A DNA stretch of 64,000 nt from assembly GCF_058153355.1 (NCBI RefSeq), contig NZ_CM177019.1. One strand, 5' to 3'. The notes under the pieces were generated by a model, which worked only from the letters and a program-made list of their open reading frames with translations, had not been told where the DNA came from and ran no database searches. The translations under genes were made by a program, and so were the position numbers. Shown one piece after another: positions 1 to 20,480 of this stretch; position 1 is the first letter of the stretch, and every line of letters begins with the position of its first letter.

Positions 1-358
1 CTTCAGAGTCATTAATCTGGGCGTAATGGTCAGCCAGGACGAATATATTGATGCTGCCATTGAAACTGGCGCTGACGCGATTGTCGTCTCCTCTATCTAT
101 GGGCATGGCGATATCGATTGTCTGGGCATGCGCGAACGCTGCATCGAGCGTGGGCTGGGTAACATCATGCTCTATGTGGGCGGTAACCTGGTGGTCGGAA
201 AACATGACTTCGCTGACGTGGAAACCAAGTTCAAAGAGATGGGATTTGATCGCGTCTTTTCCCCAAGTCATGACTTAGAAGATGTTTGTCAGCTGATGGC
301 CCACGATATCACCCAACGTCATGACGTTGATACTCGCATTCTTGAAGAGGCAATCTGA
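1..358 (+). CDS. Glutamate mutase small (sigma, B12-binding) subunit, 5'-truncated by window edge
   Basis: Frame continues open to position 2 (FRVINLGV upstream of the first Met). Translation resembles clostridial GlmS/MutS B12-binding subunit (AIETGAD..VSS.YG.G.IDC, VGGN.VVGK). Sits first in a glmS-glmL-glmE-mal gene order. Confidence 0.8.
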
Positions 359-1746: not shown

Positions 1747-1764
1747 CAATTAAGGCTGCAATCA

Positions 1765-3210: not shown

Positions 3211-4451
3211 TGAAAATAAAACAGGCCCTTTTCACCGCTGGCTACTCTTCATTCTATTTCGATGACCAGCAGGCGATAAAAAACGGAGCGGGTCACGACG
3301 GCTTTTTTTATACCGGAGAGCCGGTAACACAGGGGTTTAACGCCGTACGTCAGGCCGGGGAGTGCGTTTCGGTTCAGTTGATTCTGGAAAACGGTGCGGT
3401 CGCCGTAGGCGACTGTGCTGCCGTACAGTATTCCGGGGCAGGCGGTCGCGATCCACTGTTCCTCGCAGAGCACTTTATTCCGTTCCTCAACGACCATATC
3501 AAGCCATTACTGGTAGGCCGCGATGTGGATGCTTTCCTGCCGAATGCCCGTTTCTTCGACAAATTGCGTATTGACGGAAACTTGCTGCATACCGCCGTAC
3601 GTTACGGATTATCACAGGCGCTGCTTGATGCTACCGCGCTGGCAACCGGCCGTCTAAAAACTGAAGTGGTCTGTGATGAATGGCAGTTGCCACGCGTGGC
3701 GGAATCCATTCCATTATTTGGTCAGAGCGGCGACGATCGATATATCGCTGTCGATAAGATGATCCTTAAGGGCATCGACGTGCTACCTCATGCGCTGATT
3801 AATAACGTCGAAGAGAAACTGGGCTTTAAAGGAGAAAAACTGCGCGAATATGTCCGTTGGCTATCCGATCGGATTCTAAGCAAACGCACCAGCGCACGCT
3901 ACCACCCTACCCTGCACATCGATGTATACGGCACTATTGGTCTGATCTTCGATATGGATCCGCTTCGCTGTGCGCAATACATCGCCAGTCTGGAAAAAGA
4001 GGCGCAAGGCCTGCCGCTCTACATTGAGGGGCCGGTCGATGCCGGTAACAAGCCCGATCAAATTCGCCTGCTGACCGCGATTACCAAAGAGCTGACGCGC
4101 CTCGGTTCCGGCGTGAAAATTGTGGCCGATGAATGGTGTAACACCTACCAGGATATTGTTGATTTCACTGATGCCGCCAGTTGCCACATGGTGCAAATCA
4201 AAACCCCGGATCTGGGCAGTATTCACAACATCGTCGATGCAGTTCTTTATTGCAACAGCCACAGCATGGAAGCGTACCAGGGCGGCACCTGCAATGAAAC
4301 CGATGTCAGCGCCCGCACGTGTGTCCACGTCGCCCTTGCCGCTCGCCCTATGCGTATGCTGGTAAAACCGGGGATGGGCTTTGACGAAGGCCTCGATATC
4401 GTCTTCAACGAAATGAATCGTACTATCGCGCTGTTGCAGGCTAAGGATTAA
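3210..4451 (+). CDS. mal: 3-Methylaspartate ammonia-lyase (beta-methylaspartase)
   Basis: 413-aa ORF, same length as clostridial methylaspartase, enolase-superfamily-like. Start overlaps the glmE stop. Confidence 0.8.
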   Translation: MKIKQALFTAGYSSFYFDDQQAIKNGAGHDGFFYTGEPVTQGFNAVRQAGECVSVQLILENGAVAVGDCAAVQYSGAGGRDPLFLAEHFIPFLNDHIKPLLVGRDVDAFLPNARFFDKLRIDGNLLHTAVRYGLSQALLDATALATGRLKTEVVCDEWQLPRVAESIPLFGQSGDDRYIAVDKMILKGIDVLPHALINNVEEKLGFKGEKLREYVRWLSDRILSKRTSARYHPTLHIDVYGTIGLIFDMDPLRCAQYIASLEKEAQGLPLYIEGPVDAGNKPDQIRLLTAITKELTRLGSGVKIVADEWCNTYQDIVDFTDAASCHMVQIKTPDLGSIHNIVDAVLYCNSHSMEAYQGGTCNETDVSARTCVHVALAARPMRMLVKPGMGFDEGLDIVFNEMNRTIALLQAKD

Positions 4452-4454
4452 CAA

Positions 4455-5825
4455 ATGGCTCGTTCTTTTAAAGTCTTATCGCCAACGGCAATCCTCGGGT
4501 ATGGATTCCCGGAAGAGAGCTTCCGCAAAGCGATGGCAGAATCGCCCGATCTGATCGCCGTTGATGCAGGCTCTTCCGATCCTGGCCCCCACTACCTCGG
4601 GGCGGGCAAACCGTTTACCGATCGCGCAGGGGTCAAACGCGATCTACGCTATATGATCACCGCAGGCGTGCAAAATAATATACCGGTGGTGATCGGAACG
4701 GCCGGCGGTTCTGGTGCAGCTCCACACCTGGAGTGGTGCCGAGAAATAATTCATGAGATTGCCCGGGAAGAGCACCTCGCGTTCTCGATGGCGCTGATCC
4801 CGGCAGACGTTGACAAAGCCATCGTCCACCAGGCGCTGGATAACGGCAAAATCACGGCGCTGGATTTTGTCCCGCCGTTAACCCACGACGCGATTGACGA
4901 AAGTACGTATATCGTCGCGCAAATGGGCGTCGAACCCTTCCAGCAGGCGCTGAAAGAAGGCGCGCAAGTGGTGCTGGGCGGGCGCGCTTACGACCCGGCC
5001 TGCTTTGCTGCGCTACCGATCATGCAAGGCTTTGATGAAGGTCTGGCGCTGCATTGTGGGAAAATCCTTGAATGCGCGGCAATCGCCGCAACGCCCGGCT
5101 CAGGCTCTGACTGTGCGATGGGCATCATTGATGACAACGGCTTTACGCTGAAGACATTTAATCCGAAGCGTAAATTTACCGAAACGTCAGCGGCTGCACA
5201 CACACTGTATGAGAAATCCGATCCCTACTTCCTGCCAGGACCTGGCGGCGTGTTGAACCTGAAAGGTTGCACATTTAAAGCGATCAATGATGGCGAAGTT
5301 TACGTCAGCGGTTCTAAGCATGAAGAAACGCCCTATGCCCTGAAACTGGAAGGTGCGCGGCGGGTGGGTTTCCGCTGTTTGACCATCGCCGGAACGCGCG
5401 ACCCGATCATGATCGCCGGGATCGATAACATCATCGATGAAGTCAAAACCAGCGTTTCGCGTAATCTGTCCTTAGACGATGACAGCATTCGCATCAATTT
5501 CCACCTGTACGGCAAAAACGGGGTGATGGGTAACCATGAACCGATGCAAACTGCCGGGCATGAGCTGGGGATTGTCCTTGATGTAGTTGCACCGACCCAG
5601 GAAATTGCCAACAGCGTTTGCTCGCTGGTGCGCTCTACCATGCTGCACTACGGCTATGAAAACCGCATCGCTACCGCAGGCAACCTGGCGTTCCCGTTCT
5701 CCCCTTCTGATATCCAGGGCGGGCCGGTATACGAATTTTCCATATATCACCTGATTGAAGCCAACGACGCTCTGCGTTTTGATTTCCATATTGAACAGGT
5801 GACGCCAGAAGGAGTTCAGGCATGA
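4455..5825 (+). CDS. DUF1446 (AtuA-like) family protein, function unknown
   Basis: 456-aa ORF tightly packed in the operon; family assignment from recollection of AtuA-like sequence features. Confidence 0.6.
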   Translation: MARSFKVLSPTAILGYGFPEESFRKAMAESPDLIAVDAGSSDPGPHYLGAGKPFTDRAGVKRDLRYMITAGVQNNIPVVIGTAGGSGAAPHLEWCREIIHEIAREEHLAFSMALIPADVDKAIVHQALDNGKITALDFVPPLTHDAIDESTYIVAQMGVEPFQQALKEGAQVVLGGRAYDPACFAALPIMQGFDEGLALHCGKILECAAIAATPGSGSDCAMGIIDDNGFTLKTFNPKRKFTETSAAAHTLYEKSDPYFLPGPGGVLNLKGCTFKAINDGEVYVSGSKHEETPYALKLEGARRVGFRCLTIAGTRDPIMIAGIDNIIDEVKTSVSRNLSLDDDSIRINFHLYGKNGVMGNHEPMQTAGHELGIVLDVVAPTQEIANSVCSLVRSTMLHYGYENRIATAGNLAFPFSPSDIQGGPVYEFSIYHLIEANDALRFDFHIEQVTPEGVQA

Positions 5826-6139
5826 AACAGTCAATTGTCTCACTGGCGCAAGTCATTCGTTCGAAAAATGCCGGACCTTACGAACTGGTTTTAGATATTT
5901 TATTTAAAACGAAAGAAAACTATGAGCGAGTAAAATCATCAGGGCAATTAACCCCAGAACTGATTGCGCGCTTATATCATGTTGAACCTGACTTTATTCA
6001 TCGTATTGTCTGGTTTGATCCTTCTAACGCAGTAAAAATTGTCATGCCACGAGATATTATCTCCGGGAATGTAGGTGACAATGATGTCTATGGCGCACAG
6101 CAACATGCACCTTTATTAAATATGAGTTTCGATTTGTAA
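5822..6139 (+). CDS. Small DUF4387-like protein (usual partner of DUF1446 proteins)
   Basis: 105-aa ORF overlapping the upstream stop by 4 nt, indicating translational coupling. Confidence 0.55.
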   Translation: MKQSIVSLAQVIRSKNAGPYELVLDILFKTKENYERVKSSGQLTPELIARLYHVEPDFIHRIVWFDPSNAVKIVMPRDIISGNVGDNDVYGAQQHAPLLNMSFDL

Positions 6140-6299
6140 AAATCCGAACACTTTTAGCCAACTGACATCCCGTCACTTATTGCAGCTCAACACTTCAGCT
6201 ATTTGTAAGGTTGTTATAGCAGGTAGATGCCTGAATCTCTATTCAGGCATCCACTTCTCCTGATTCTGATTTATCGCCGTGCACCTGATGGAGGAAAAA

Positions 6300-7580
6300 A
6301 TGAAGAAAATAAGTTTAACCACGATGATTCTTTTGGCGCTGGTACTTGGAATGATTATCGGCGTAGTGCTCAATAACACTGCTTCACCGGAAACAGCAAA
6401 ACTCTATGCGCAAGAAATATCGATATTCACGACGATTTTCTTACGACTGATAAAAATGATTATCGCTCCGTTAGTGGTCTCTACCCTGGTGGTAGGTATT
6501 GCTAAAATGGGCGATGCCAAAGCCCTTGGTCGTATTTTTTCTAAAACACTCTTTTTATTTATTTGCGCCTCATTGCTGTCAATTGCCTTAGGCTTGATAA
6601 CGGTAAATTTCTTCATGCCAGGCACAGGAATTAATTTTGTTGCACACGGTGCCGAAACCACCGGAGTGGTCGCGTCAGAACCCTTTACACTAAAAGTATT
6701 TATTTCGCATGCTTTCCCCACCAGCATTGTCGATGCCATGGCGCACAATGAAATTTTGCAAATCGTGGTGTTCTCAATTTTCCTCGGCTGTAGCCTGACG
6801 GCGATTGGTGAGAAAGGCAGCGCCATCGTTCACGCCTTAGATTCGCTGGCACATGCCATGTTAAAGCTCACTGGCTACGTCATGCTCTTCGCTCCCCTGA
6901 CCGTATTCGCCGCTATTTCAGCATTGATTGCTGAACGAGGACTGGCAGTTATGGTGAGCGCCGGGATCTTTATGGGTGAATTTTATTTCACCATGTTATT
7001 ACTTTGGGTGCTGCTTATCGGTCTGGCCATCGTTTATGTCGGCCCCTGCATCAGACGCCTGACCCGCGCCCTTTCAGAACCCGCCCTGCTGGCATTTACC
7101 ACATCCAGTTCTGAAGCTGCTTTTCCGGGAACGCTTGAAAAACTGGAGCAATTTGGCGTTTCCCCCAAAATTGCCAGCTTTGTCTTACCCATTGGCTACT
7201 CATTTAATCTCGTTGGATCAATGGCCTACTGCTCCTTCGCCACAGTTTTCATCGCCCAGGCCTGCAATATCCATTTATCCATCGGTGAGCAAATCACCAT
7301 GCTGTTGATCCTGATGTTGACCTCGAAAGGAATGGCTGGCGTACCACGCGCCTCAATGGTGGTTATCGCCGCCACGCTCAACCAGTTCAATATTCCGGAA
7401 GCGGGGCTGATCTTGCTGATGGGCGTTGATCCGTTCCTTGATATGGGGCGTTCCGCGACAAACGTCATGAGCAACGCAATGGGCGCTGCGATGGTGAGTC
7501 GGTGGGAAGGCGAACATTTCGGCGAGGGTTGTCGGGGTAAAGCATTAAAACCCAATGAATCGAACGTTGCTCTGCCCTGA
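6300..7580 (+). CDS. Dicarboxylate/amino acid:cation symporter (DAACS family), likely glutamate/aspartate uptake
   Basis: Multi-pass membrane protein with GltP/GltT-like sequence. Start chosen at the ATG (6300) preceded by a GGAGGA ribosome-binding site. Confidence 0.8.
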   Translation: MKKISLTTMILLALVLGMIIGVVLNNTASPETAKLYAQEISIFTTIFLRLIKMIIAPLVVSTLVVGIAKMGDAKALGRIFSKTLFLFICASLLSIALGLITVNFFMPGTGINFVAHGAETTGVVASEPFTLKVFISHAFPTSIVDAMAHNEILQIVVFSIFLGCSLTAIGEKGSAIVHALDSLAHAMLKLTGYVMLFAPLTVFAAISALIAERGLAVMVSAGIFMGEFYFTMLLLWVLLIGLAIVYVGPCIRRLTRALSEPALLAFTTSSSEAAFPGTLEKLEQFGVSPKIASFVLPIGYSFNLVGSMAYCSFATVFIAQACNIHLSIGEQITMLLILMLTSKGMAGVPRASMVVIAATLNQFNIPEAGLILLMGVDPFLDMGRSATNVMSNAMGAAMVSRWEGEHFGEGCRGKALKPNESNVALP

Positions 7581-7687
7581 GGGAGATCTTAAGCAATCAG
7601 AAGCCAATGACTACGCATTTTTATAAGCCGGATCATGAAGTTAGACGGCAATTAAGTAACACTAACGTTTAAGGTGAAAAGTGAAAT

Positions 7688-9340
7688 ATGTCCAAACCAT
7701 TTATCTGGCAAGAACCGTTTCTACAAAATAAAGACGGTACAGAATATACATTAATTAGCGATCAACATATTACAGTAACGGAATTAGACGGCGAAGAAGT
7801 AATAAAAATCGCTCCTGAAGCATTAACGCTGCTTGCCCGGCAGGCATTTTATGAAGCCTCTTTTTTCTTACGTTCCGCTCATTTGCAACAGGTCGCCAGC
7901 ATTCTTAACGATCCGCAGGCCAGCAGTAATGATAAATACGTTGCGTTGCAGTTATTACGTAATGCTGAAGTCTCAGCAAAAGGGGTATTACCCAACTGTC
8001 AGGATACCGGCACCGCAACTATTGTTGCCAGTAAAGGGCAACAGATATGGACCGGAGGCAACGACGCCGAAGCCTTAAGCAAAGGCATTTACACCACTTT
8101 TCAGGAAAATAATTTGCGCTTTTCACAAAATGCGCCGCTGGATATGTATACCGAAGTCAATACGTACACCAATCTACCGGCGCAGATTGATATCAGCGCC
8201 GTCGCTGGTGATGAGTACCATTTTCTCTGTATTAATAAAGGGGGCGGCTCCGCCAATAAAGCCGCACTTTATCAGGAAACCAAATCCTTATTGCAACCAG
8301 AAAAACTGACCGCATTTTTAATCGAAAAAATGAAATCGCTGGGCACCGCTGCCTGCCCGCCTTACCACATCGCCTTTGTCGTCGGAGGGCTTTCAGCCGA
8401 TCAAACCTTAAAAGTTGCCAAGCTGGCCTCTACGAAATATTACGACAATTTGCCCACCAGCGGAAACGAGCAGGGACAAGCATTCCGTGATATTGAGCTG
8501 GAAAAAGCGTTGCTCGAAGCCAGTCAGCAATTTGGTATTGGTGCGCAATTTGGGGGTAAATATTTCGCTCATGATATTCGCGTCATTCGTCTGCCGCGTC
8601 ACGGTGGCTCCTGCCCGATAGCTATGGCGCTCTCCTGTTCTGCCGATCGCAATATCAAAGCAAAAATTAACAAGCATGGTATCTGGCTGGAAAAACTCGA
8701 ACACAATCCGGGGCAATATATTCCAGCCTCACTGCGGGAAGAAAATCACGCGCAACATGTACAGCTGGATCTAAACCGTCCGTTGCGTGACGTGATGCAG
8801 GATCTCGCCAGATTACCGGTAGGCACCCGCGTGTCGTTAAGTGGTCCCATCGTAGTGGCGCGCGATATCGCCCACGCCAAAATAAAAGCGCGGCTGGATA
8901 GCGGCGAATCGATGCCGGATTATCTGAAGCATCATATTGTCTATTACGCTGGCCCGGCGAAAACACCGGAGAACATGGCCTGCGGTTCACTGGGTCCAAC
9001 CACGGGCGGTCGAATGGACGGTTATGTCGAAACCTTCCAGGCGGCTGGCGGCAGTCTGGTAATGTTATCGAAAGGTAACCGCAGCCAGCAGGTCACCGAT
9101 GCCTGTCACAAACATGGCGGCTTCAATCTGGGAAGTATTGGCGGTGCAGCTGCGTTACTGGCGCAAGAATATGTCAAAAGTCTGCGTTGCCTGGAATACC
9201 CGGAGCTGGGTATGGAAGCGGTGTGGATGATGGAAGTGGAAAATCTGCCCGCATTCATCCTGGTCGATGATAAAGGCAATAATTTCTTTAGTCAGTTTGA
9301 GCAGCAACACCGCTGCGCCAGTTGCCCTGCGGGACATTAA
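7688..9340 (+). CDS. fumD: Class I fumarate hydratase paralog, probable mesaconase (FumD-type)
   Basis: 550-aa ORF closely resembling FumA/FumB (CQDTGTA, GGGSANK, CPPYH, SCSADRN). Genomic context is the methylaspartate pathway. Confidence 0.85.
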
Positions 9341-9349
9341 GGAAAATGA

Positions 9350-9952
9350 ATGGAAGCGCGAATTTCAACTGAACGGCATGTGCAGCGCCAGCAGAAATTG
9401 AAGGAACAGGTCGATACGCGCGTCGCGGCGGCGATAGAGAAAAAAGGGATCTTGATTGTTTTCACCGGCAACGGCAAAGGGAAATCCACTGCCGCGTTTG
9501 GTACTGTGACGCGCGCGGTGGGTCATGGCAAAACGGTGGGGGTTGCGCAGTACATCAAGGGGCAATGGGACAACGGCGAATACAACCTTCTCCAGCCGCT
9601 GGGGGTTGAGTTTCATATTATGGGAACCGGTTTTACCTGGGAGACTCAGAACCGGCAAGCGGATATCGACGCGGCGAAAGAGGTCTGGTCGGAAAGCAAA
9701 CGGATGCTGGCTGACAAGCGTTACGACTTAGTGGTGCTTGATGAGCTGACCTATATGCTGGCTTACCATTATCTGGACACCGAAGAAGTGATCACTTCTC
9801 TGCAAAACCGCCCGGCACAACAAAGTGTCATTGTCACCGGACGCAGTTGCCACAGTCAGATATTAAAAATGGCGGATACGGTCAGCGAAATCCGCCCCGT
9901 CAAACATGCTTTTGATAACGGCATTCAGGCGCAGCCGGGTATCGACTGGTAA
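9350..9952 (+). CDS. Cob(I)alamin adenosyltransferase (BtuR/CobO family)
   Basis: 200-aa ORF with P-loop-like GNGKGKSTAA, characteristic of CobA/BtuR-type ATP:corrinoid adenosyltransferases. Confidence 0.8.
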   Translation: MEARISTERHVQRQQKLKEQVDTRVAAAIEKKGILIVFTGNGKGKSTAAFGTVTRAVGHGKTVGVAQYIKGQWDNGEYNLLQPLGVEFHIMGTGFTWETQNRQADIDAAKEVWSESKRMLADKRYDLVVLDELTYMLAYHYLDTEEVITSLQNRPAQQSVIVTGRSCHSQILKMADTVSEIRPVKHAFDNGIQAQPGIDW

Positions 9953-9955
9953 TAA

Positions 9956-9990
9956 CTGCGCCTGGCATCCCGCCAGGCGCAGGTTTTACA
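9956..9990. terminator. Bidirectional intrinsic terminator between the adenosyltransferase gene and the convergent LysR gene
   Basis: Perfect 10-bp inverted repeat ctgcgcctgg/ccaggcgcag with a 7-nt loop, followed by a T-run. Confidence 0.6.
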
Positions 9991-10891
9991 TCTCCTGCGG
10001 TACGACCGATTTCGCCAGCAACCATTCACGAAATTGCTGCAAGTGCGGCGAGTCAGACTTCTCTTCCTGCCACGTCATAATAAAACGATTACCGGTACGA
10101 ATAGGCACATCACAGGGAATCACCATATCGCCACTATCCAAATCATGTTGAATAGCGAACCGTGGTAACAGCGCCACGCCGAGATTAGAGCGCACGGCGG
10201 CAATCAGCATTGAAAGCAAATCGAAACGTGGTCCGTTATTGACCAGCGGACTGCTAACGCCAGATAAAGCAAACCACTCTTCCCAGCCAGTAATACGGGT
10301 GCTTTGATGCAGAAGTGGTAACTCAGTAAGCAGTTCTGCCACTGAAAGTTTTTGATCGGACATTGCAAGCAAACTGCCGCTGCATACCGGCAAAATCTCC
10401 TCTTCAAAGAGATATTCTACTTCCGCCCAGGGCGCGCAAAAATTTTCGCGCATAATGACAGCATCGTACTCCCGATTAAGAAAATCGCCGTTATTAGCTA
10501 AAGAATGAATATTAACAATAATATCGGGATGTAACTTTGTGAATTCATGTAAATTTGGGATTAACCAGTGGGTACTAAACGTAGGATTAACGGCAAGTTC
10601 AATAACCTGAACCGTAGGCTGCCAGGTCATAATCGTATTGGTATCGCGTTCCAGCTTATTTAATGTTTCTTTTACTATCCCCAGGTAATACTTCCCTGCA
10701 TCATTAAGAAAAATGCGTTTTTTAGAGTGTGAAAATAGCGGAGTATGTAAAAATTCCTCCAGCGCACTTACTTGTCTGAATACAGCACTTTGGGTTAACG
10801 CTAACTCCTCTGCCGCTCTGGTATAGCTTTCATGACGTGCGACGACCTCAAAAGTCACCAGCAGCTCCGTTTTAGGTATTTTTCCTCGCAT
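9986..10891 (-). CDS. LysR-family transcriptional regulator
   Basis: N-terminal helix-turn-helix typical of LysR regulators (TFEVVARHESYTRAAEELALTQSAVFRQV). Start could instead be the upstream ATG at 10921. Confidence 0.85.
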   Translation of the reverse strand: MRGKIPKTELLVTFEVVARHESYTRAAEELALTQSAVFRQVSALEEFLHTPLFSHSKKRIFLNDAGKYYLGIVKETLNKLERDTNTIMTWQPTVQVIELAVNPTFSTHWLIPNLHEFTKLHPDIIVNIHSLANNGDFLNREYDAVIMRENFCAPWAEVEYLFEEEILPVCSGSLLAMSDQKLSVAELLTELPLLHQSTRITGWEEWFALSGVSSPLVNNGPRFDLLSMLIAAVRSNLGVALLPRFAIQHDLDSGDMVIPCDVPIRTGNRFIMTWQEEKSDSPHLQQFREWLLAKSVVPQEM

Positions 10892-11480
10892 AATGCCGTC
10901 CGTGAAAAAATAACAATTCAAAAATTATTTTATAAAAAACAGTAGCACTAATGAATATCATAATTCAAATAAACAAACCAGTCAGCTATATGTCTAACCA
11001 GGAAAATAAAGTGACAATAATCCTAAAACAGGAATTTCACCTCAGTTATCCGCATGCAATACTTTAAAGCTATTATTGCAAGAATATTATTCATATACAT
11101 GAATATACTCTAAATAAGTCAAGTTGCAGGAAGGGAACAAATAATGAATTTCCAGAAGCTTACATAAGTAAGTGACCTGGGTGAGCGAACATCGATGCAG
11201 CACATGCAACTTGAATTATGACAAGTATACAATGATAAATTTATATACCCTATGTTATATATTATCTATGTCCGGTTAGATTGAATGAGTCATAGCCTTA
11301 AAAGACTTCACAAAAGATAATTCCTCTTTAACAATAAGCCAGATTTACCACTTGTAAAACTTGCTATCGCCACATACACTACGCGCGTTTTCTTTCCCTT
11401 TTGCTGGCTGCTGACCGGAAAGACAAAATTACCCTCGCAATACAGGGGGTTGATTAACGTCTATATTTCAGGACAGCGTT
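10892..11480. promoter_or_regulatory. AT-rich divergent intergenic region between the LysR gene and the RtcB-like gene
   Basis: About 590 bp of strongly AT-rich non-coding DNA between divergently oriented genes. Confidence 0.5.
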
Positions 11481-12878
11481 ATGCATCATCTTTCAAGGCT
11501 TGATAAAGCCTTTCTGCGCAAAGGGATCCAACTTTCCCGCGCCAACAATATTGTTTCATTATGTCGTCCATCAGGAGCCAGTGCCCGCGTACTGCTGCCG
11601 GACGAACTGCCGCTGGAAGAAAAAGCAGTAACACAACTGCTTGATTTTGCAGAAGTGAAGCTACCAGACCACCCAGGTTATGTGCGCCAGACGTGCGCGA
11701 CGCCAGATTTTCATCCCGGCAATGGCGTCCCCGTTGGCGCGGTGGTGGCCTCAACGCCGGATTTAGTCATTCCCGCCGCCATCGGCACCGATATTTCTTG
11801 TGGCATGCGGCTGCTGACGACCGGATTAACACTTGAGCAAGCCGAAGCGCATAAAGACGTCATCGCTCAGCGGTTAACGCAAGTGCTACTGCAAAATGAG
11901 CGCGATGTTCCGTTATCCGCACAGGCGTTCACCGCGCTTTTTGATGGCGGACCGGCAGATTGCGTGTCGACCTTGCCATCAGCAGGTCTCTGGACACGCA
12001 CGAATATCCCCCGAATGGTACAAGAGATTGACCGCTGCATTGGGCTTAACGAGCATAACAGTCATTCGCGTTATGCCCCACCCGCCCTGCTGGCAACGGA
12101 CCGCGCATTACTCCGCGATCCTTGTCTTGGTACGCCGGGTTCAGGTAATCATTTTATTGAACTTCAGGTCGTTGATAGCGTGGTTGATCGCCATGTAGCC
12201 TGGCAACAAGGGCTGAAAACAGGCGATATTGTGGTGATGATCCACAGTGGATCGCGAGATGTTGGCTTTTACGTCGGAAGACGCTGGATGGATCGCGCCC
12301 GTGCTGAATGGCCCACCGGACATAAACATCCACAAAGCGGGTTATATGGTCTGGCAGGCGGACTGGCGGAGGAATATCTACAAGCGATAGGAATGGCGGC
12401 GCGTTACGCGTGGTTAAATCGCGTGACAATTGCCGAAATGGTGCGCGTATGTCTTGCCAATCTCTTTCATCAGGACAATTCGCATCTGGTGGTGGATGTG
12501 CCACATAACATCATCCTTCGCGAGCATGAAATGAATATTCATCGCAAAGGCGCAACACCGGCACGAGTGGGCAATCTGGCGTTAATCCCCGGTTCAATGG
12601 GCGATTATTCGTGGCTTGCGGTAGGTTGCGGCAACCCGGAGTGGCTGTGGTCTTGCAGTCACGGAGCAGGACGCAGCCAGCGTCGGCAGGCCATGCGCTC
12701 ACGCGCGACTGAAGAGTCAACGTTGCCGTGGCAATGCGTCACATTGCGCGAAGAACGGCGTATTGAAGAAGCGCCAGCTGCTTATAAAGATATTGGTCCG
12801 GTTATCGAAGCCCAACAAGAGGCCGGATTAATTCATCCAGCGGTTAGATTCCGACCGTGGTTAACGTTTAAAGCATAA
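11481..12878 (+). CDS. RtcB-family RNA ligase-like protein (orphan paralog)
   Basis: 465-aa ORF with RtcB hallmark motifs (DISCGMR, GSGNHFIE, HSGSRDVG, CSHGAGR). No rtcA or rtcR gene adjacent. Confidence 0.75.
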   Translation: MHHLSRLDKAFLRKGIQLSRANNIVSLCRPSGASARVLLPDELPLEEKAVTQLLDFAEVKLPDHPGYVRQTCATPDFHPGNGVPVGAVVASTPDLVIPAAIGTDISCGMRLLTTGLTLEQAEAHKDVIAQRLTQVLLQNERDVPLSAQAFTALFDGGPADCVSTLPSAGLWTRTNIPRMVQEIDRCIGLNEHNSHSRYAPPALLATDRALLRDPCLGTPGSGNHFIELQVVDSVVDRHVAWQQGLKTGDIVVMIHSGSRDVGFYVGRRWMDRARAEWPTGHKHPQSGLYGLAGGLAEEYLQAIGMAARYAWLNRVTIAEMVRVCLANLFHQDNSHLVVDVPHNIILREHEMNIHRKGATPARVGNLALIPGSMGDYSWLAVGCGNPEWLWSCSHGAGRSQRRQAMRSRATEESTLPWQCVTLREERRIEEAPAAYKDIGPVIEAQQEAGLIHPAVRFRPWLTFKA

Positions 12879-12975
12879 AAAAGGCCATCATACGATGGCC
12901 AACCATGTCGAAACCGACAGCCCTTCGCCATTCCTGTAGAGGGAAGCGGCGAGGGCTATTTCTTATTACAGATAT
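12875..12975 (-). ncRNA. sdhX: sucD 3' UTR ending in an intrinsic terminator; expected position of the SdhX (RybD) sRNA
   Basis: Hairpin ggccatc-gtatg-gatggcc followed by a U-tract on the minus strand immediately after the sucD stop. The sRNA identity is from position only; its sequence was not verified. Confidence 0.5.
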
Positions 12976-13845
12976 TTATTTCAGAACAGTTTTCAGTGCT
13001 TCACCGATATCCGCCAGGCTGCGAACGGTTTTCACGCCTGCGGCTTCCAGAGCAGCAAATTTCTCATCCGCAGTCCCTTTCCCACCGGCAATGATGGCAC
13101 CCGCGTGGCCCATACGTTTGCCTTTCGGCGCAGTTACACCAGCGATGTAACCTACAACTGGCTTGGTAACGTGCTCTTTGATGTACGCAGCCGCTTCTTC
13201 TTCAGCGCTACCGCCGATCTCACCGATCATCACGATCGCTTCGGTCTGCGGATCTTTTTCGAACATTTCGAGGATGTCGATAAAGTTAGAGCCTGGGATC
13301 GGGTCGCCGCCGATACCGACACAGGTCGACTGACCGAAACCGTAATCCGTGGTCTGTTTAACCGCTTCATAGGTCAGTGTACCGGAACGGGAAACGATAC
13401 CCACTTTACCCGGTTTGTGAATGTGACCAGGCTGGATGCCGATTTTACATTCACCCGGAGTGATAACGCCTGGGCAGTTCGGGCCGATCATGCGTACGCC
13501 AGCTTCGTCCAGTTTCACTTTCACCGTCAGCATATCCAGCGTCGGGATGCCTTCAGTGATGGTGATAATCAGTTTGATACCTGCGTCGATGGCTTCCAGA
13601 ATGGAGTCTTTGCAGAACGGAGCCGGTACGTAGATAACAGAAGCGGTAGCGCCAGTGGCAGCAACGGCTTCACGCACAGTGTTGAACACCGGCAGACCGA
13701 GGTGGGTAGTACCGCCTTTACCAGGGGTTACGCCGCCAACCATTTTAGTGCCGTATGCAATGGCCTGTTCAGAGTGGAAAGTCCCCTGGCTACCAGTAAA
13801 GCCCTGGCAGATAACCTTGGTGTTTTTATCAATTAAAATGGACAT
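12976..13845 (-). CDS. sucD: Succinyl-CoA synthetase alpha subunit
   Basis: 289-aa ORF matching SucD. Confidence 0.97.
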
Positions 13846-15011
13846 TATTTCCCCTCCACTGCGGCAACAACCTGCTGAGCTGCATCCGTCAGACCTTTTG
13901 CTGCAATAATATTCAGGCCGCTGTCAGCCAGTTTCTTCGCGCCGAGTTCGGCGTTGTTACCTTCCAGACGTACCACGACCGGTACGTTAACACCCACTTC
14001 CGCTACCGCGCCGATGATACCGTCAGCGATCAGGTCGCAACGAACGATACCGCCGAAGATGTTAACCAGAACGGCTTTCACTTTGTCGTCAGAGAGGATG
14101 ATTTTGAATGCTTCGGTTACACGTTCTTTGGTTGCGCCACCGCCAACGTCCAGGAAGTTAGCCGGTTCGCCGCCGTGCAGTTTAACGATGTCCATGGTGC
14201 CCATCGCCAGACCTGCGCCGTTAACCATACAACCGATGTTACCGTCCAGCGCAACGTAGTTCAGTTCCCACTGTGCAGCCTGTGCTTCACGTGGATCTTC
14301 CTGCGACTGGTCGCGCATTTCACGCAGATCAGGCTGGCGGAACAGTGCGTTGCCATCAGCACCCAGTTTACCGTCGAGGCAGATCAGATCGCCCTGTTTG
14401 GTAATAACCAGCGGGTTAATTTCGATAAGAGCAAGGTCGCGCTCAAGGAAAATGGTCGCCAGACCCATGAAAATTTTGGTGAACTGTTGAACCAGTTTAC
14501 CTTCCAGGCCCAGTTTGAACGCCAGCTCACGCCCCTGATACGGCATCGGGCCAGTCAGCGGATCAAGCGCAACTTTGTGGATCAGGTGCGGAGTTTCTTC
14601 CGCCACTTTTTCGATTTCCACGCCGCCTTCAGTGGAGGCCATAAAGACCACGCGACGGGAACTACGGTCTACAACGGCACCAAGATACAGCTCTTTAGCG
14701 ATATCGGTCGCTGCTTCAACCAGAATCTGGTTAACCGGTTGGCCATTAGCATCTGTTTGATACGTTACCAGACGCTTGCCCAGCCAGTTTTCTGCAAAAG
14801 CACGGATGTCTTCTTTGCTGTTTACAACTTTCACACCGCCCGCTTTACCGCGGCCACCAGCGTGAACCTGACATTTCACTACCCACGGACCGGCACCGAT
14901 TTTTGAAGCGGCTTCTTCTGCTTCGCGTGGAGTAGTACAGGCATAACCCACCGGTGCTGGTAAGCCATAGCGGGCAAAAAGTTGTTTTGCCTGATATTCA
15001 TGTAAGTTCAT
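13845..15011 (-). CDS. sucC: Succinyl-CoA synthetase beta subunit
   Basis: 388-aa ORF starting [16 protein letters not shown]; stop overlaps the sucD start. Confidence 0.97.
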
Positions 15012-15089
15012 GTGTTCTGTCCATCCTTCAGTAATCGTTATCTTTTAAACCGTAGACCGAATATTTCGTATCGCTTCCGGGTATTGTCG

Positions 15090-15275
15090 GTCACCCGTAG
15101 GCCTGATAAGACGCGCAAGCGTCGCATCAGGCATCGCGTGTCGGATGCGGCGCGAGCGCCTTATCCGACCTACATTGATGGTCCCCGTAGGCCTGATAAG
15201 ACGCGTCAGCGTCGCATCAGGCTTCAATTGCCGGAGAAAGCGATAATGCCTCATCCGGTCTACAGTGCAGGTGAA
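15090..15275. repeat. REP/BIME palindromic elements in the sucB-sucC intergenic region
   Basis: Repeated gcctgataagacgcg...cgtcgcatcaggc and ggatgcggcg palindromic units. Confidence 0.8.
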
Positions 15276-15285
15276 ACTTAAACTA

Positions 15286-16503
15286 CTACACGTCCAGCAG
15301 CAGACGCGTCGGATCTTCCAGCAACTCTTTGATCGTTACCAGGAAGCCCACGGACTCGCGACCATCGATCAGACGGTGATCGTAGGACAGCGCCAGGTAC
15401 ATCATCGGCAGGATCTCAACCTGACCATTCACTGCCATCGGACGATCTTTGATAGCGTGCATACCCAGAATTGCGCTCTGCGGCGGGTTGATGATAGGCG
15501 TAGACATCAGGGAACCGAACACACCACCGTTGGTGATGGTGAAGTTACCACCGGTCAGATCCTCAACCGTCAGCTTGCCGTCACGGCCTTTAACTGCCAG
15601 CTCTTTAATTTTCTTCTCGATGTCTGCCATGCCGAGGGTATCGACATCACGCAGAACCGGCGTCACCAGGCCGCGCGGGGTCGATACCGCCATGCTGACG
15701 TCGAAATAGTTGTGGTAAACCACATCATCGCCGTCGATAGAAGCATTCACTTCCGGGTAACGTTTCAGGGCTTCAACCACCGCTTTCACGTAGAAGGACA
15801 TAAAGCCCAGACGGATGCCGTGACGTTTTTCAAACGCTTCACCATACTGCTTACGCAGATCCATAATCGGCTTCATGTTGACTTCGTTGAACGTGGTCAG
15901 CATGGCAGTAGAGTTTTTCGCTTCCAGCAGACGCTCTGCCACACGCTTACGCAGGCGAGTCATCGGAACACGTTTTTCGCTACGTGCAGCCAGAGCCGGT
16001 TGCGCCGCCGTAGTAGCTGCTGCCGGTGCAGACTCTTTCGCCGGGGCTTTCGCCAGATGTTTTTCCACATCTTCACGGGTCAGACGACCACCTACACCGG
16101 TGCCTTTAATGGCGCTGGCATCAAGATTGTGTTCAGCCAGCAGGCGACGGATCGCCGGGCTTAAGGCATCGTTGTTTTGCTCTTCCAGAGACGCCTGTTG
16201 GCGTTGTGCCGGAGTGGACGCTTTCTCTTCAGATTTGGCGCTGGTTTCTTTACCGGCGCTGTTGCCTTCACGCAGGCGACCAAGGATCTGACGAGACGTT
16301 ACGGTTGTACCTTCATCTTCCAGAACCGCATCCAGAATGCCGTCTGCTGATGCCGGTACTTCCAGTACCACTTTGTCAGTTTCGATTTCTACCAGCACTT
16401 CATCACGTACGACTGCGTCGCCGGGTTTTTTATGCCAGGTTGCGACGGTGGCATCGGCTACGGATTCAGGCAGGTCAGGGACCAGAATATCTACGCTACT
16501 CAT
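15286..16503 (-). CDS. sucB: Dihydrolipoyllysine succinyltransferase (2-oxoglutarate dehydrogenase E2)
   Basis: 405-aa ORF with lipoyl domain and Ala/Pro-rich linkers. Confidence 0.97.
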
Positions 16504-16517
16504 TGTGTATCCTTTAT

Positions 16518-19319
16518 TTATTCGACGTTCAGCGCGTCATTAACCAGATCTTGTTGCTGTTTCTGGTGAACGGACATATACCCTACCGCCGGAGAGGCGG
16601 AGGCCGGGCGGCCTGCATAACGCAGAGAAGCCCCAAACGGAATCACTTCACGGAAATGATGCTGGCTGCAGTACCATGCGCCCTGGTTGAGCGGCTCTTC
16701 CTGGCACCAGACAAAATCCTTGACGTGAGCAAACTGCTGCAACACTTCCTGCATCGCTTTATGCGGGAACGGGTAGAGTTGCTCGATACGCACAATGGCG
16801 ACATCGTGTTGATTGTTCTTACGACGTTGTTCCAGCAGGTCGTAATAAACCTTACCAGAACACATCACTACACGCTTAACGCCCTTCGGATCAAGCTCGT
16901 CGATTTCACCGATGGCTGGCAGGAAGGTGCCGTTCGCCAGTTCTTCGAGGCTGGAAACCGCCAGCGGATGACGCAGCAGGGATTTCGGCGACATCACGAC
17001 CAGCGGACGACGCATCCCGCGCAGCGCCTGACGACGCAGCATGTGGTAAACCTGTGCCGGGGTAGACGGTACGCACACCTGCATGTTTTGCTCAGCGCAA
17101 AGTTGCAGATAACGTTCCAGACGCGCGGAGGAGTGCTCCGGCCCCTGCCCTTCATACCCGTGCGGCAGCAGCATTACCAGACCACACATCCGGCCCCATT
17201 TCTGTTCGCCAGAGGAGATGAACTGGTCGATAACCACCTGCGCACCGTTGGCAAAGTCACCAAACTGCGCTTCCCAGATGGTCAGCGTGCGCGGCTCTGC
17301 GGTGGCATAACCGTATTCAAACGCCAGCACTGCTTCTTCAGACAGTACGGAGTCCCAGACGCGGAACGCGCCCTGACCATTATGGATATGTTGCAGGGGC
17401 GTGTAAGTGGAACCGTTGGACTGGTTGTGGATCACCGCATGGCGATGGAAGAAGGTACCGCGACCGGAGTCTTCACCCGACAGGCGGACCGGAATGCCTT
17501 CATCAACCAGCGTGGCGTAAGCGAGGTTTTCCGCGCCGCCCCAGTCGAACAGTTTCTCACCGGCAGCCATTGCCTGGCGATCGCCATAAATTTTGGCAAC
17601 GCGAGACTGCATTTCAACCGCTTCCGGCACCGTACTGATACGTTTAGCCAGTTCCTGCAGGCGCTTCATCTCAACTTTGTTCGGGTACTCTTCGTCCCAT
17701 TCGTGGTTGAGGTACGGCGACCAGGTGAAAGAGTGCATGTTCATCGGACGCCACTCTGCTACCACGCAATCGCCAGCATCCAGCGCATCACGGTACAGGT
17801 TAACCATCTCGGTGGCATCTTCCAGCGTCACGACTTTTTCCTGCTCCAGCTTGTCAGCGTAGATTTTGCGCGGCGTCGGATGTTTTTTGATTTTCTGATA
17901 CATCAGCGGCTGAGTTGCACTCGGCTCGTCGGCTTCGTTGTGGCCGTGACGGCGGTAGCACACCAGGTCGATGAAGACATCACGTTTAAAGGTGTTACGG
18001 AAATCGAGCGCCAGACGGGTCACAAAGGCAACGGCTTCCGGATCATCCGCATTAACGTGGAAAATCGGTGCCTGTACCATCTTGCCGATATCAGTACAGT
18101 ACGGCGTAGAACGGGCATCCAGCGGGTTAGAGGTAGTGAAACCAACCTGGTTGTTGATAACGATACGTACCGTACCGCCAACTTCATAACCACGCGCTTT
18201 CGACATGTTCAGGGTTTCCTGAACCACGCCCTGCCCGGTCACTGCGGCATCACCGTGGATGGTGATTGGCAGCACTTTGTTGCTGCTCGGCTCATCGAGT
18301 CTGTCCAGACGGGCGCGAACAGAACCGATAACTACCGGGCTTACAATCTCAAGGTGAGACGGGTTAAACGCCAGCGCCAGGTGAACCAGGCCGCCATCGG
18401 TCTGGAAGTCAGACGAGAAGCCCATGTGGTATTTCACGTCGCCCGTGCCGAGGTGTTCTTTATGTTTACCGGCAAACTCGTCGAACAAGTCTTGCGGTTT
18501 TTTACCCAGCACGTTAACCAGCACGTTCAGACGACCACGGTGCGCCATCCCGAGAACCACTTCACGGGTGCCGCTATTGCCAGCATGGCGGATCATCTCT
18601 TTAAGCATCGGGATTAACGCGTCACCGCCTTCCAGCGAGAAGCGTTTTGCGCCAGGGAATTTTGCGCCGAGGTAACGTTCAAGGCCTTCAGCGGCGGTCA
18701 GTTCGCTTAAGAAGCGTTTTTTCTCTTCGCTATTGAAAGTCGCGCGACCAGACTCGATACGCTGTTGGATCCAGCGTTTTTCTTCGGTGCTGGTAATGTG
18801 CATGTACTCGGCACCAATCGGGCCGCAGTAGGTTTGCTTGAGGGCTTCCAGCAGCTCGCCGAGTTTCATGGTTTCTTTGCCGCTGGCAAATGAACCGACG
18901 TTGAAGGTCTCCTGGAAGTCTGCTTCGGTCAGATCGTGGAAAGACGGATCCAGATCGGCCACTTTATCTTGCTGCCACAGTCCCAGCGGATCGAGATTCG
19001 CATGCTGGTGACCGCGGAAGCGGTATGCGTTAATGAGCTGCAGGACTTTAACCTGCTTCACATTGGTGTCAGGGTCGGAGATCGTTGAAGAGTAACGTGA
19101 AGCGTCTTTCGCCAGGCGGCGGAAATATTCACGCGTTTGAGAGTGGAATTGATCCGGTTTGACTCCCGTACCAGGTAACTGCTGGAACGTCGAACGCCAG
19201 TTAGCGTCAACCGAGTCAGGATCGGTTAAGAAGTCTTCATAGAGCTGTTCTATCCAGCTCTGGTTTGCGCCAGAGAGGTAAGAAGAGTCCAACCAGGCTT
19301 TCAAAGCGCTGTTCTGCAT
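16518..19319 (-). CDS. sucA: 2-Oxoglutarate dehydrogenase E1 component
   Basis: 933-aa ORF starting [17 protein letters not shown]. Confidence 0.97.
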
Positions 19320-19476
19320 CGTGATCCCTTAAGCATCTTTTTTATGCTTACTTCGCCGTGGATACTACCACGCACAGTGATGTGCGTGCCGGGGTTCACT
19401 TGCGAGCTCTTGTCTACGTAGTGGCTCGCGAAGGAACCTTTAAAAACTGTCTTAGTGTCAGGGGCAGTTTTTAAAG

Positions 19477-19762
19477 ATTTCCTGCATTTCTTTTGTAGGC
19501 CGGATAAGGCGTTCACGCCGCATCCGGCGCTGTTTGCCTGATGCGACGCTTGCGCGTCTTATCAGGCCTACGATTCCTGCATTTCTTTTGTAGGCCGGAT
19601 AACGCATTCACGCCGCATCCGGCACTGGTTGCCTGATGCGACGCTTGCGCGTCTTATCAGGCCTACGATTTCTGCATTTCTTTTGTAGGCCGGATAAGGC
19701 GTTCACGCCGCATCCGGCACTGGTTGCCTGATGCGACGCTTGTGCGTCTTATCAGGCCTGGG
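19477..19762. repeat. Three tandem copies of a ~95-bp REP/BIME unit in the sdhB-sucA intergenic region
   Basis: Unit tctgcatttcttttgtaggccggataaggcgttcacgccgcatccggc...gcctgatgcgacgcttgcgcgtcttatcaggcctac repeated head-to-tail three times with a few substitutions. Confidence 0.85.
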
Positions 19763-19763
19763 T

Positions 19764-20480
19764 TTACGCATTACGCTGCAACAACATCGACTTGATATGG
19801 CCGATGGCGCGCGTCGGGTTCAGCCCCTTCGGACATACACTGACGCAGTTCATGATGCTGTGACAGCGGAATACGCTGAATGCATCGCTCAAACCGTCGA
19901 GGCGGCTGTCAGTCTCGGTATCACGGCTATCGATCAGGAAACGATATGCCGCTAACAAGCCTGCCGGGCCGATAAACTTATCGGGATTCCACCAGAAAGA
20001 CGGACAAGAGGTTGAACAACATGCGCAGAGAATACATTCATACAGCCCGTCGATTTTTTCGCGCTGCTCTGGCATCTGTAAATGCTCGCGAGCTGGCGGA
20101 TTTTGTCCATTATTCAACAGGTAAGGCTTAATTTTCTCATATTGCGCATAGAATTGTCCCATGTCTACCACCAAATCGCGGATCACCGGTAAACCTGGCA
20201 GCGGGCGAATCACAATCTTCTTGCCCGGCTGGTTGAGTGCCGAAATCGGGGTAATACAGGCCAGACCATTCTTACCGTTCATGTTCAGACCGTCGGAACC
20301 GCACACACCTTCACGGCAGGAGCGGCGGAACGACAGGCTGGGATCTTTCTCTTTCAACTGGATAAGCGCATCCAGCAGCATCATGTCGCGACCTTCTTCC
20401 GCTTCCAGGGTGTAATCCTGCATACGCGGAGCATCATCAACATCCGGGTTATAGCGATAAATTGAAAACTCGAGTCTCAT
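19764..20480 (-). CDS. sdhB: Succinate dehydrogenase iron-sulfur subunit
   Basis: 238-aa ORF with cysteine clusters for the Fe-S centres. Confidence 0.97.
   Translation of the reverse strand: MRLEFSIYRYNPDVDDAPRMQDYTLEAEEGRDMMLLDALIQLKEKDPSLSFRRSCREGVCGSDGLNMNGKNGLACITPISALNQPGKKIVIRPLPGLPVIRDLVVDMGQFYAQYEKIKPYLLNNGQNPPAREHLQMPEQREKIDGLYECILCACCSTSCPSFWWNPDKFIGPAGLLAAYRFLIDSRDTETDSRLDGLSDAFSVFRCHSIMNCVSVCPKGLNPTRAIGHIKSMLLQRNA

What the first reader, a model, noticed from the sequence alone, without database searches (positions are those of the whole stretch)
12860..12980. Accessory DNA joins the core exactly at the sucD/sdhX terminator
The RtcB-like ORF stop codon (TAA, 12876..12878) lies within the A-run that forms the U-tract of the convergent sucD 3' UTR terminator (hairpin 12883..12900). 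The insertion left the TCA operon terminator, and presumably the 3' UTR sRNA, intact while creating face-to-face convergent transcription with no spacer. Read-through from the RtcB-like gene would be antisense to the sRNA.
Basis: partly seen in the sequence, partly recalled or inferred. Interest (0 to 1): 0.4.

Follow-up and report, generated by a model that had tools for sequence, protein, structure and literature searches.

The report
Deletion scar beside the sucD/SdhX terminator
In this E. coli strain an accessory RtcB RNA-ligase gene does end inside the A-run of the sucD/SdhX terminator, most likely because an old 5.6-kb deletion of the mngRAB genes fused the two; the terminator and the small RNA are untouched, and the arrangement is ordinary.

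Summary
The RtcB-family ORF (11481..12878, +) stops at TAA 12876..12878, inside the A-run that encodes the U-tract of the minus-strand terminator (hairpin 12883..12900). That terminator ends sucD and the 3'UTR sRNA SdhX. Window 12875..12975 (-) is 100/101 identical to K-12 sdhX.

Breakpoint mapping against 5,426 complete E. coli genomes puts the accessory/core junction at 12873/12874. This is 3 nt before the stop codon and 10 nt before the hairpin.

The interpretation needs correcting in two places.

- **Insertion versus deletion.** 134 genomes and a cryptic-clade Escherichia carry rtcB-mngB-mngA-mngR-sucD. The window differs from that layout by a 5,610-bp deletion with 1 nt of microhomology. 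The deletion replaced the last codon (GGG TAA became G+CA TAA), so the stop codon is supplied by the core side.
- **Convergence is not new.** In K-12 the mngR stop codon lies 2 nt from the annotated sdhX end.

A second, independent loss of mngRAB (TPR-sucD type, 547 genomes) ends 1-2 nt away. The terminator therefore marks the selective edge of a variable region. Antisense read-through is plausible but untested, and it applies equally to mngR in K-12. Low interest.

The parts
11481..12878 (+). RtcB-family RNA ligase ORF (465 aa), an accessory gene at the right end of the glutamate-fermentation (methylaspartate) cluster
   Evidence: Pfam PF01139 scores 318.9 bits, nearly full length. PGAP calls it 'RtcB family protein' in matching genomes. 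The catalytic motifs DIsCG, GSGNHF, HSGSR, HRKGAT and HGAGR align with P. horikoshii RtcB. It scores below the NCBIfam equivalog cut-offs.
12873..12874 (.). Junction between rtcB-derived DNA (up to 12873) and DNA of the mngR-sucD intergenic region (from 12873/12874 onward). G12873 is shared by both parents, giving 1 nt of microhomology.
   Evidence: Alignment with the B-type genome L004. The left parent reads TTTAAGG|GGTAACTG and the right parent reads GATAAG|CATAAAAAAGGCC. Megablast breakpoints agree at query positions 1472 and 101.
12876..12878 (+). TAA stop codon of rtcB, supplied by the core side. T12876 is the only difference from K-12 sdhX, where the + strand base is C.
   Evidence: With the K-12 allele the ORF would run on to 537 aa.
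12877..12882 (-). A6 run on the + strand, which is the U6 tract of the sucD/SdhX intrinsic terminator
12883..12900 (-). Terminator hairpin: 7-bp stem GGCCATC/GATGGCC with a 4-nt loop
   Evidence: Terminator scan. Folds at -12.7 kcal/mol on the minus strand and -13.0 on the plus strand. Identical to K-12.
12875..12975 (-). SdhX (RybD) sRNA, the sucD 3'UTR; the seed lies at 12902..12912
   Evidence: 100/101 identical to sdhX b4764 of NC_000913.3. The seed UUCGACAUGGU is given in PMC6393394. The whole 3'UTR folds with z = -4.85.
12919..12968 (+). Candidate + strand terminator for rtcB (or mngR) transcripts: a hairpin at 12919..12957 followed by AUUUCUUAUU. It is the antisense of the 5' stem-loop of SdhX.
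   Evidence: Folds at -24.2 kcal/mol, z = -4.7. Its function is inferred only.
12976..13845 (-). sucD, the last gene of the sdhCDAB-sucABCD operon
   Evidence: The protein is WP_000025458.1 in matching genomes.

Best explanation
**What it is.** This is the right-hand edge of the strain-variable region between cydA and sucD, and in this strain it is a deletion scar.

**How it arose (inferred).** An ancestor carried cydA - glutamate-fermentation cluster - LysR - rtcB - mngB - mngA - mngR - sucD. A 5,610-bp illegitimate deletion with 1 nt of microhomology removed the following:
- the last 2 nt of rtcB's final Gly codon and its TAA;
- the 94-nt spacer;
- mngB, mngA and mngR;
- the first base after the mngR stop codon.

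The rtcB frame now closes on G+CA TAA. The CA and the TAA are the bases that in mngR-type genomes lie between the mngR stop and the A-run of the sucD terminator.

**Consequences.** Shown: the minus-strand terminator (hairpin plus U6) and the 101-nt SdhX are unchanged. Inferred from that identity: sdh-suc termination and SdhX function should be as in K-12. On the + strand the 12883-12900 hairpin lacks a U-tract. By inference, rtcB transcripts, like mngR transcripts in K-12, continue about 80-90 nt antisense to sdhX. They would reach the 12919-12957 hairpin and its U-rich tail.

**Why the boundary sits here (inferred).** Selection on the terminator and sRNA sets the limit of what deletions or replacements can remove.
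For: **Both parental sides exist contiguously in one genome.**
- In L004 (strain elppa5), rtcB ends TTTAAGGGGTAA and is followed by 94 nt and mngB.
- In the same genome, mngR ends CGATAA followed by GCATAAAAAAGGCC.
- 134 genomes have this rtcB-mngB junction. A cryptic-clade Escherichia, L009, has it too.

**The junction appears to have a single origin.**
- The junction TTTAA(G/A)GCATAAAAAAGGCC is the same in every genome read that has it: the window, two hut-containing genomes and two genomes with an rtcB remnant, one of them O157:H7.
- 156 genomes match across it with the rtcB 3' end present.

**The 'GCAT' before the A-run is specific to mngR-bearing genomes.** The TPR-type genome NC101 has CCCGAA-TAAAAAA instead.

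**Polarity within rtcB.**
- In the last 250 nt, with the cryptic clade as outgroup, the junction-bearing haplotypes form a derived branch. The branch lengths are 10 substitutions for that branch, 4 for L004 and 15 for L009.
- At residues 365 and 458, B-type genomes keep states seen in distant orthologs. The junction-bearing genomes have N and H, states seen in none of the distant orthologs.

**An independent parallel.** TPR-mngB-mngA-mngR-sucD (565 genomes) and TPR-sucD (547 genomes) show a second loss of mngRAB ending 1-2 nt away.

**SdhX is intact.** It is 100/101 identical to K-12. In K-12 the mngR stop lies 2 nt from sdhX.
Against: - Distant orthologs of this RtcB subfamily (57-63% identity: Acidovorax, Massilia, Saezia, Undibacterium) end in ...TFKA*, like the window. 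They do not end in ...TFKG* like the proposed ancestor. Under the deletion model the Ala is a coincidence. Given the retained G, this has roughly a 1-in-4 chance.
- B-type and window also share the TAA in register, so the breakpoint could be read as lying after the stop codon with two substitutions.
- No true outgroup lacking both modules (E. albertii, E. fergusonii, Salmonella) could be aligned. The rooting therefore rests on one cryptic-clade contig.
- rtcB is mosaic through recombination, which weakens tree-based polarity.
- K-12 and B-type differ by more than one indel. The mngB 3' end is only 79.5-84% identical.
- No transcript data were available for any of the RNA-level statements.
Confidence: 0.75

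Rival explanations
1. Direct insertion. The glutamate-fermentation/rtcB block was inserted next to sucD, and rtcB's own GCA TAA landed on the terminator's TAAAAAA through a 3-nt microhomology. The mngRAB module was later inserted into rtcB's last codon to give the rtcB-mngB-mngA-mngR-sucD layout. K-12-type genomes then lost the island.
For: - Distant orthologs end ...TFKA*, matching the window's terminal Ala.
- B-type and window share TTTAAGG-NN-TAA in register.
- Counting events alone, this model and the deletion model are equal (two gains and one loss each).
Against: - It requires the GCAT in all of the roughly 3,900 mngR-bearing genomes (K-12 type, ST131 type and B type) to be a relic of rtcB.
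- It requires the K-12 and TPR types to descend from an rtcB-bearing ancestor.
- The B type is found in a cryptic-clade Escherichia.
- Residues 365 and 458 and the 3'-segment branch lengths make the window-type haplotype the derived one.
- No integrase, tRNA or att-like repeat is present.
- There is no GC discontinuity at the junction.
Confidence: 0.2
2. Functional antisense module. The tight overlap is selected because rtcB transcription or translation termination inside the terminator modulates SdhX 3'-end formation or abundance. This could work through antisense pairing and RNase III cleavage, or through transcriptional interference.
For: - The + strand lacks a U-tract after the shared hairpin, so overlap of convergent transcripts is plausible.
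- The rtcB stop is 4 nt from the hairpin.
Against: - The same geometry exists with the unrelated gene mngR in K-12.
- No convergent ORF is annotated at the junction in either remnant-carrying genome examined, O157:H7 Z1769 and SCU-313. About 830 genomes, by subtraction, have this remnant layout.
- rtcB is reduced to a remnant in about 84% of junction-bearing genomes, which argues against selection for the pairing.
- There are no expression data. Literature searches found nothing on antisense control of SdhX.
Confidence: 0.05

Closest known systems
K-12 sucD-sdhX / mngR convergent junction (NC_000913.3 765050..765153)
   Same: The terminator hairpin, U-tract and SdhX are the same (100/101). A convergent ORF ends at the edge of the A-run: the mngR stop is 2 nt from the annotated sdhX end, and the rtcB stop overlaps it by 4 nt.
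   Different: The convergent gene is an RtcB-family ligase rather than the GntR-family repressor MngR. Its last codon and its stop are built from the former mngR-sucD spacer. Position 12876 is T here and C in K-12.
Variable regions (integration/deletion hot spots) between conserved core genes in E. coli. That such hot spots are a general phenomenon is stated from my own knowledge, not checked in a paper here.
   Same: One core-gene interval (cydA-sucD) holds alternative modules: mngRAB, the glutamate-fermentation cluster with rtcB, a hut operon, and a TPR gene. They occur in at least six layouts with fixed outer boundaries.
   Different: The boundary can be resolved to the nucleotide. It coincides with the 3' end of a functional sRNA/terminator, and two independent mngRAB losses end 1-2 nt apart.
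Glutamate-fermentation (methylaspartate) gene cluster of E. coli O157:H7 with mesaconase FumD (PMC4682846)
   Same: The window carries glmL, glmE, methylaspartate ammonia-lyase, an AtuA-like gene, a transporter, a class I fumarase (FumD homologue), cobO and LysR, in the same order as the annotated matching genomes, two of which carry the rtcB remnant like O157:H7. In O157:H7 itself only the fumarase-cobO-LysR end was read.
   Different: O157:H7 has only a remnant of rtcB at the same junction. The window keeps the gene intact.
Bidirectional intrinsic terminators shared by convergent genes. The concept is cited from my own knowledge, not checked in a paper here.
   Same: A single hairpin lies between two convergent genes, with an A-run on one side.
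   Different: After the hairpin the + strand reads AACCAUGUCG, with no U-tract. The hairpin therefore does not fit the bidirectional pattern.

Membership tests
SdhX (RybD) 3'UTR-derived sRNA | Lies immediately downstream of the sucD stop codon on the same strand, and its sequence matches the annotated sdhX | tested here: met
   12875..12975 (-) starts at the base after the sucD stop. It is 100/101 identical to b4764.
SdhX (RybD) 3'UTR-derived sRNA | Conserved seed (UUCGACAUGGU, core CGACAU) directly upstream of the terminator stem-loop | tested here: met
   The seed is present at 12902..12912 (-). The seed definition comes from PMC6393394.
SdhX (RybD) 3'UTR-derived sRNA | Rho-independent terminator hairpin followed by a terminal U stretch | tested here: met
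   GGCCATCGTATGATGGCC followed by UUUUUU.
SdhX (RybD) 3'UTR-derived sRNA | RNase E processing from the operon mRNA, and Hfq binding | not testable with these tools
   These need RNA experiments. Rfam 15 returned no SdhX family match, so no covariance-model test was possible.
RtcB RNA ligase family (PF01139) | Full-length match to the family profile above the curated cut-off | tested here: met
   318.9 bits against a cut-off of 27, covering profile positions 7-425 of 426.
RtcB RNA ligase family (PF01139) | Conserved active-site motifs (metal-binding Cys/His/Asp and the His that is guanylylated). The residue roles are from my own knowledge of P. horikoshii RtcB. | tested here: met
   DIsCG, GSGNHF, HsGSR, HRKGAT and HGAGR are all aligned and conserved against 1uc2/4dwq.
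Canonical E. coli RtcB / PrfH-associated RtcB2 equivalogs (NCBIfam NF007153, TIGR03073) | Score above the equivalog cut-off | tested here: not met
   205.5 bits against a cut-off of 407, and 168.5 bits against 271.8. This is a distinct RtcB subfamily. No rtcA, rtcR or prfH is nearby.
Integrase-mediated genomic island | Integrase or recombinase gene, tRNA/tmRNA target, flanking att repeats | tested here: not met
   No such genes are annotated in the full island in L003 or L004 plus L017. There is no tRNA in window 1-20000. The left island end lies outside the window, so flanking repeats were not examined exhaustively.
Bidirectional intrinsic terminator | U-tract following the hairpin on both strands | tested here: not met
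   Only the minus strand qualifies. The + strand tail is AACCAUGUCG.
Illegitimate (microhomology) deletion junction | Both flanks are found contiguous with the intervening DNA in related genomes, and the breakpoint is resolved with short or no homology | tested here: met
   L004 positions 13475..19084 (5,610 bp) are absent from the window, with 1 nt (G) shared at the breakpoint. The direction of the event is inferred, not proven.

The most novel reading that the evidence does not exclude
The sucD/SdhX terminator hairpin may be more than a passive boundary. A second hairpin with the identical 7-bp stem (GGCCATC-NNNN-GATGGCC) sits just beyond mngB in the B-type and ST131-type genomes, so mngRAB is bracketed by two copies. 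The TPR-sucD layout looks like a recombinant between them. If so, the terminator doubles as a cassette-exchange site that repeatedly gains and loses mngRAB. In rtcB-bearing strains, rtcB read-through RNA would then act as a strain-specific antisense partner of SdhX.
Probability: 0.08. Interest if true: 0.5.

Novelty: new member of a known kind. Interest (0 to 1): 0.2.

Why it matters
The junction is a clean, nucleotide-resolved example of how a functional 3'UTR sRNA/terminator fixes the edge of a hypervariable chromosomal interval. Two independent losses of mngRAB stop within 1-2 nt of each other, just outside the U-tract. One of them rebuilt the end of a neighbouring ORF from former spacer bases.

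It also shows that SdhX is unchanged across layouts in which its convergent neighbour is mngR, rtcB, an rtcB remnant or nothing. That gives natural isogenic-like material for asking whether convergent transcription affects a 3'UTR sRNA. It does not reveal a new mechanism or a new element.

Tried and rejected
- **Rfam scan.** An E-value-mode scan of 10800-13200 returned no SdhX family. The only hit was an insignificant V_AS5 match (E = 0.8). SdhX identity was therefore established by comparison with the K-12 annotation.
- **Terminal Gly argument.** I first argued that RtcB proteins end in Gly, which would make the window's Ala derived. I dropped this when distant orthologs of this subfamily turned out to end in Ala.
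- **L008 as an outgroup.** I considered the 'Citrobacter sp.' MAG L008 as an outgroup carrying the window-type junction. I rejected it. It is about 100% identical to E. coli CH10508 through hut-rtcB and falls to 83-91% in sucB/sucA. It is therefore a chimeric assembly or a recombinant, not independent evidence.
- **SucD contig lookup.** The look-up of encoding contigs with SucD returned only K-12-type contexts.
- **Origin by a longer microhomology or the hairpin repeats.** I tested whether the window junction arose by recombination at a 4-nt TAAG microhomology or between the two GGCCATC hairpins. The sequence fits neither.
- **Literature.** Searches for mngR/sucD terminators and for SdhX antisense found nothing relevant.
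- **Composition.** There is no GC shift at the junction.

Full report
**1. What is at the coordinates**

The window is E. coli. On the + strand, 12867..12878 reads TTT AAA GCA TAA. This is followed by AAAA and the inverted repeat GGCCATC-ATAC-GATGGCC at 12883..12900.

On the minus strand this is GGCCATCGTATGATGGCC UUUUUU. The consensus scan lists it as an intrinsic terminator, and it folds at -12.7 kcal/mol.

sucD is 12976..13845 (-). The + strand ORF 11481..12878 (465 aa) is a genuine RtcB-family protein. Pfam PF01139 scores 318.9 bits over profile positions 7-425 of 426. The active-site motifs are conserved against P. horikoshii RtcB. The protein falls below the NCBIfam equivalog cut-offs for canonical RtcB and for the release-factor-associated RtcB.

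**2. The sRNA**

Rfam 15 has no matching family. K-12 MG1655 annotates sdhX (b4764) as the 101 nt directly after sucD. Window 12875..12975 (-) is 100/101 identical to it. [quoted passage not shown]

The single difference is window 12876, which is T here and C in K-12. That base is the T of the rtcB stop codon. With the K-12 allele the ORF would continue to 537 aa. The T allele is also present in mngR-bearing genomes (L004, L029), so it pre-dates the fusion.

**3. Breakpoint mapping**

Against 5,426 complete E. coli genomes, K-12-like genomes align only from window 12871 onward. In those genomes the neighbour of sucD is mngR.

Read base by base, using the commoner G variant at 12872, rtcB-derived sequence runs to 12873. 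From there the sequence is that of the mngR-sucD spacer.

The junction is therefore at 12873/12874. This is 3 nt before the stop codon, 10 nt before the hairpin, and just outside the annotated sdhX end at 12875.

**4. The interval is modular**

Annotated neighbours show at least six layouts between cydA and sucD.

| Type | Layout (cydA ... sucD) | Genomes |
|---|---|---|
| A (K-12) | mngB-mngA-mngR-sucD | about 3,190, by subtraction |
| B | two hypothetical genes - glutamate-fermentation cluster - LysR - rtcB - mngB-mngA-mngR-sucD | 134 |
| C/E (window type) | same cluster - LysR - (hut operon in some) - rtcB - sucD | 156 |
| D (O157:H7, 042, SCU-313) | as C/E, but rtcB reduced to fragments at the same junction | about 830, by subtraction from the 1,122 genomes carrying the cluster |
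| F (ST131, S87) | TPR gene - mngB-mngA-mngR-sucD | 565 |
| T (NC101) | TPR gene - sucD | 547 |

The cluster itself is the known methylaspartate/mesaconase (FumD) cluster (PMC4682846).

**5. Insertion or deletion?**

In B-type genomes rtcB ends TTT AAG GGG TAA, followed by 94 nt and the end of mngB. In the same genomes mngR ends CGA TAA, followed by GCATAAAAAAGGCC.

The window-type junction TTTAAGG+CATAAAAAAGGCC equals the B type minus 5,610 bp, with a single shared G at the breakpoint. The last codon became G+CA (Ala). The TAA is the one that lies in the spacer of mngR-type genomes.

Evidence that B is the older state:
- The GCAT before the A-run is found in the mngR-bearing layouts that were read (K-12 has GCAC). 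It is absent from the TPR-sucD layout.
- The B-type rtcB end and its downstream sequence occur in a cryptic-clade Escherichia, L009.
- In the last 250 nt of rtcB, the junction-bearing haplotypes form one branch of about 10 substitutions. L004 has 4 and L009 has 15. With L009 as outgroup, the junction is derived.
- At residues 365 and 458, B-type proteins keep states seen in distant orthologs. The junction-bearing proteins have N and H, states seen in none of the distant orthologs.
- mngRAB has been lost a second time, independently: the F and T layouts.

Evidence against:
- Distant orthologs at 57-63% identity end ...TFKA*, like the window.
- rtcB is mosaic. The window's 5' part resembles L004 and its 3' end resembles L007.
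- No proper outgroup junction could be retrieved.

I put the deletion model at about 0.75 and direct insertion at about 0.2.

**6. Convergent transcription**

The claim that the event created a face-to-face arrangement with no spacer does not hold. In K-12 the mngR stop codon starts 2 nt after the annotated sdhX 3' end. The rtcB stop is only 4 nt closer to the hairpin.

On the + strand the 12883-12900 hairpin is followed by AACCAUGUCG and was not called as a terminator. The next + strand structure is the 12919-12957 hairpin (-24.2 kcal/mol) followed by AUUUCUUAUU.

By inference, rtcB transcripts here and mngR transcripts in K-12 overlap sdhX by about 80-90 nt before terminating. Whether this has any consequence is untested. 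Most junction-bearing genomes have lost rtcB, which argues against a selected rtcB-SdhX interaction.

**7. Why the boundary is here**

Three different left-hand neighbours (mngR, rtcB, the TPR-gene upstream region) diverge from one another within 12871-12876. Everything from the A-run to sucD is conserved. By inference, the simplest reading is purifying selection on the terminator and SdhX.

No integrase, tRNA or compositional step marks the junction.

One extra observation: B-type and F-type genomes carry a second hairpin with the same stem (GGCCATC-NNNN-GATGGCC) just beyond mngB. The T-type junction is compatible with recombination between the two copies, which share 12 nt (AAAAAGGCCATC) and where the T type has the hp2 loop. 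The window's own junction does not use these repeats.

**8. Verdict**

The mechanism is ordinary: a deletion scar at the selective edge of a variable interval, with a stop codon recruited from spacer DNA. SdhX and its terminator are unaffected. Interest is low (0.2). It is a new instance of a known kind.

Noticed in passing
L004 13565..13582, L009 3271..3288, L029 7666..7683; compare window 12883..12900: A second hairpin with the same 7-bp stem as the sucD terminator (GGCCATC-NNNN-GATGGCC) lies just downstream of mngB in rtcB-mngB (B-type) and TPR-mngB (ST131-type) genomes. mngRAB is therefore bracketed by two copies. The TPR-sucD layout (NC101, 547 genomes) looks like a recombinant between them. 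K-12 lacks the second copy.
   Followed up: partly
window 10910..11372, between the LysR gene and rtcB: This AT-rich spacer (GC about 36%) is shared with B-type genomes. In other strains (L001, L007, L008) it is replaced by a six-gene histidine-utilisation (hut) operon, with breakpoints at window 10909 and 11373.
   Followed up: partly
L003 14493..15046 and L006, about 2493..3047 (O157:H7): In O157:H7, E. coli 042, SCU-313 and, by subtraction, about 830 genomes in total, rtcB is reduced to short fragments (for example the last 34 nt). The identical junction to the sucD terminator is kept. The gene decayed after the fusion in most carriers.
   Followed up: partly
window 11481..12878 compared with L004, L007 and L009: rtcB is a recombinant mosaic. 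Positions 143-892 of the gene are nearly identical to the B-type allele (1-2 differences). The last 250 nt match the hut-type allele (4 differences, against 14 to the B type).
   Followed up: yes
L008 (DXKH01000067.1, 'Citrobacter sp.' MAG) 1..15715: The contig is about 100% identical to E. coli CH10508 from hut through rtcB and 98-99% identical in sucDC. It drops to 83-91% in sucB/sucA. This suggests either a chimeric MAG assembly across the conserved suc genes or an inter-species recombinant.
   Followed up: partly
L028 6060..6539 and 7010..7400, compared with L004/L017: The last 500 nt or so of mngB and the cydA upstream region are only 80-84% identical between K-12 and B-type genomes, while mngR-mngA are 94-100% identical. 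These are deeply diverged haplotypes flanking the island's insertion point.
   Followed up: no
window 15061..15255 (sucB-sucC intergenic region) and 19476..19760 (sdhB-sucA region): A 195-nt intergenic insert is present in the window, K-12, L001 and L003. It is absent from L004, L006 and L007, which have about 14 nt there. It shares repeat-like similarity with the sdhB-sucA intergenic region, so it is probably a REP/BIME-type element.
   Followed up: no
window 11103..11225 (+): A weak Rfam hit to Vibrio RNA AS5 (19.5 bits against a gathering score of 96, E = 0.8). It is treated as chance.
   Followed up: no
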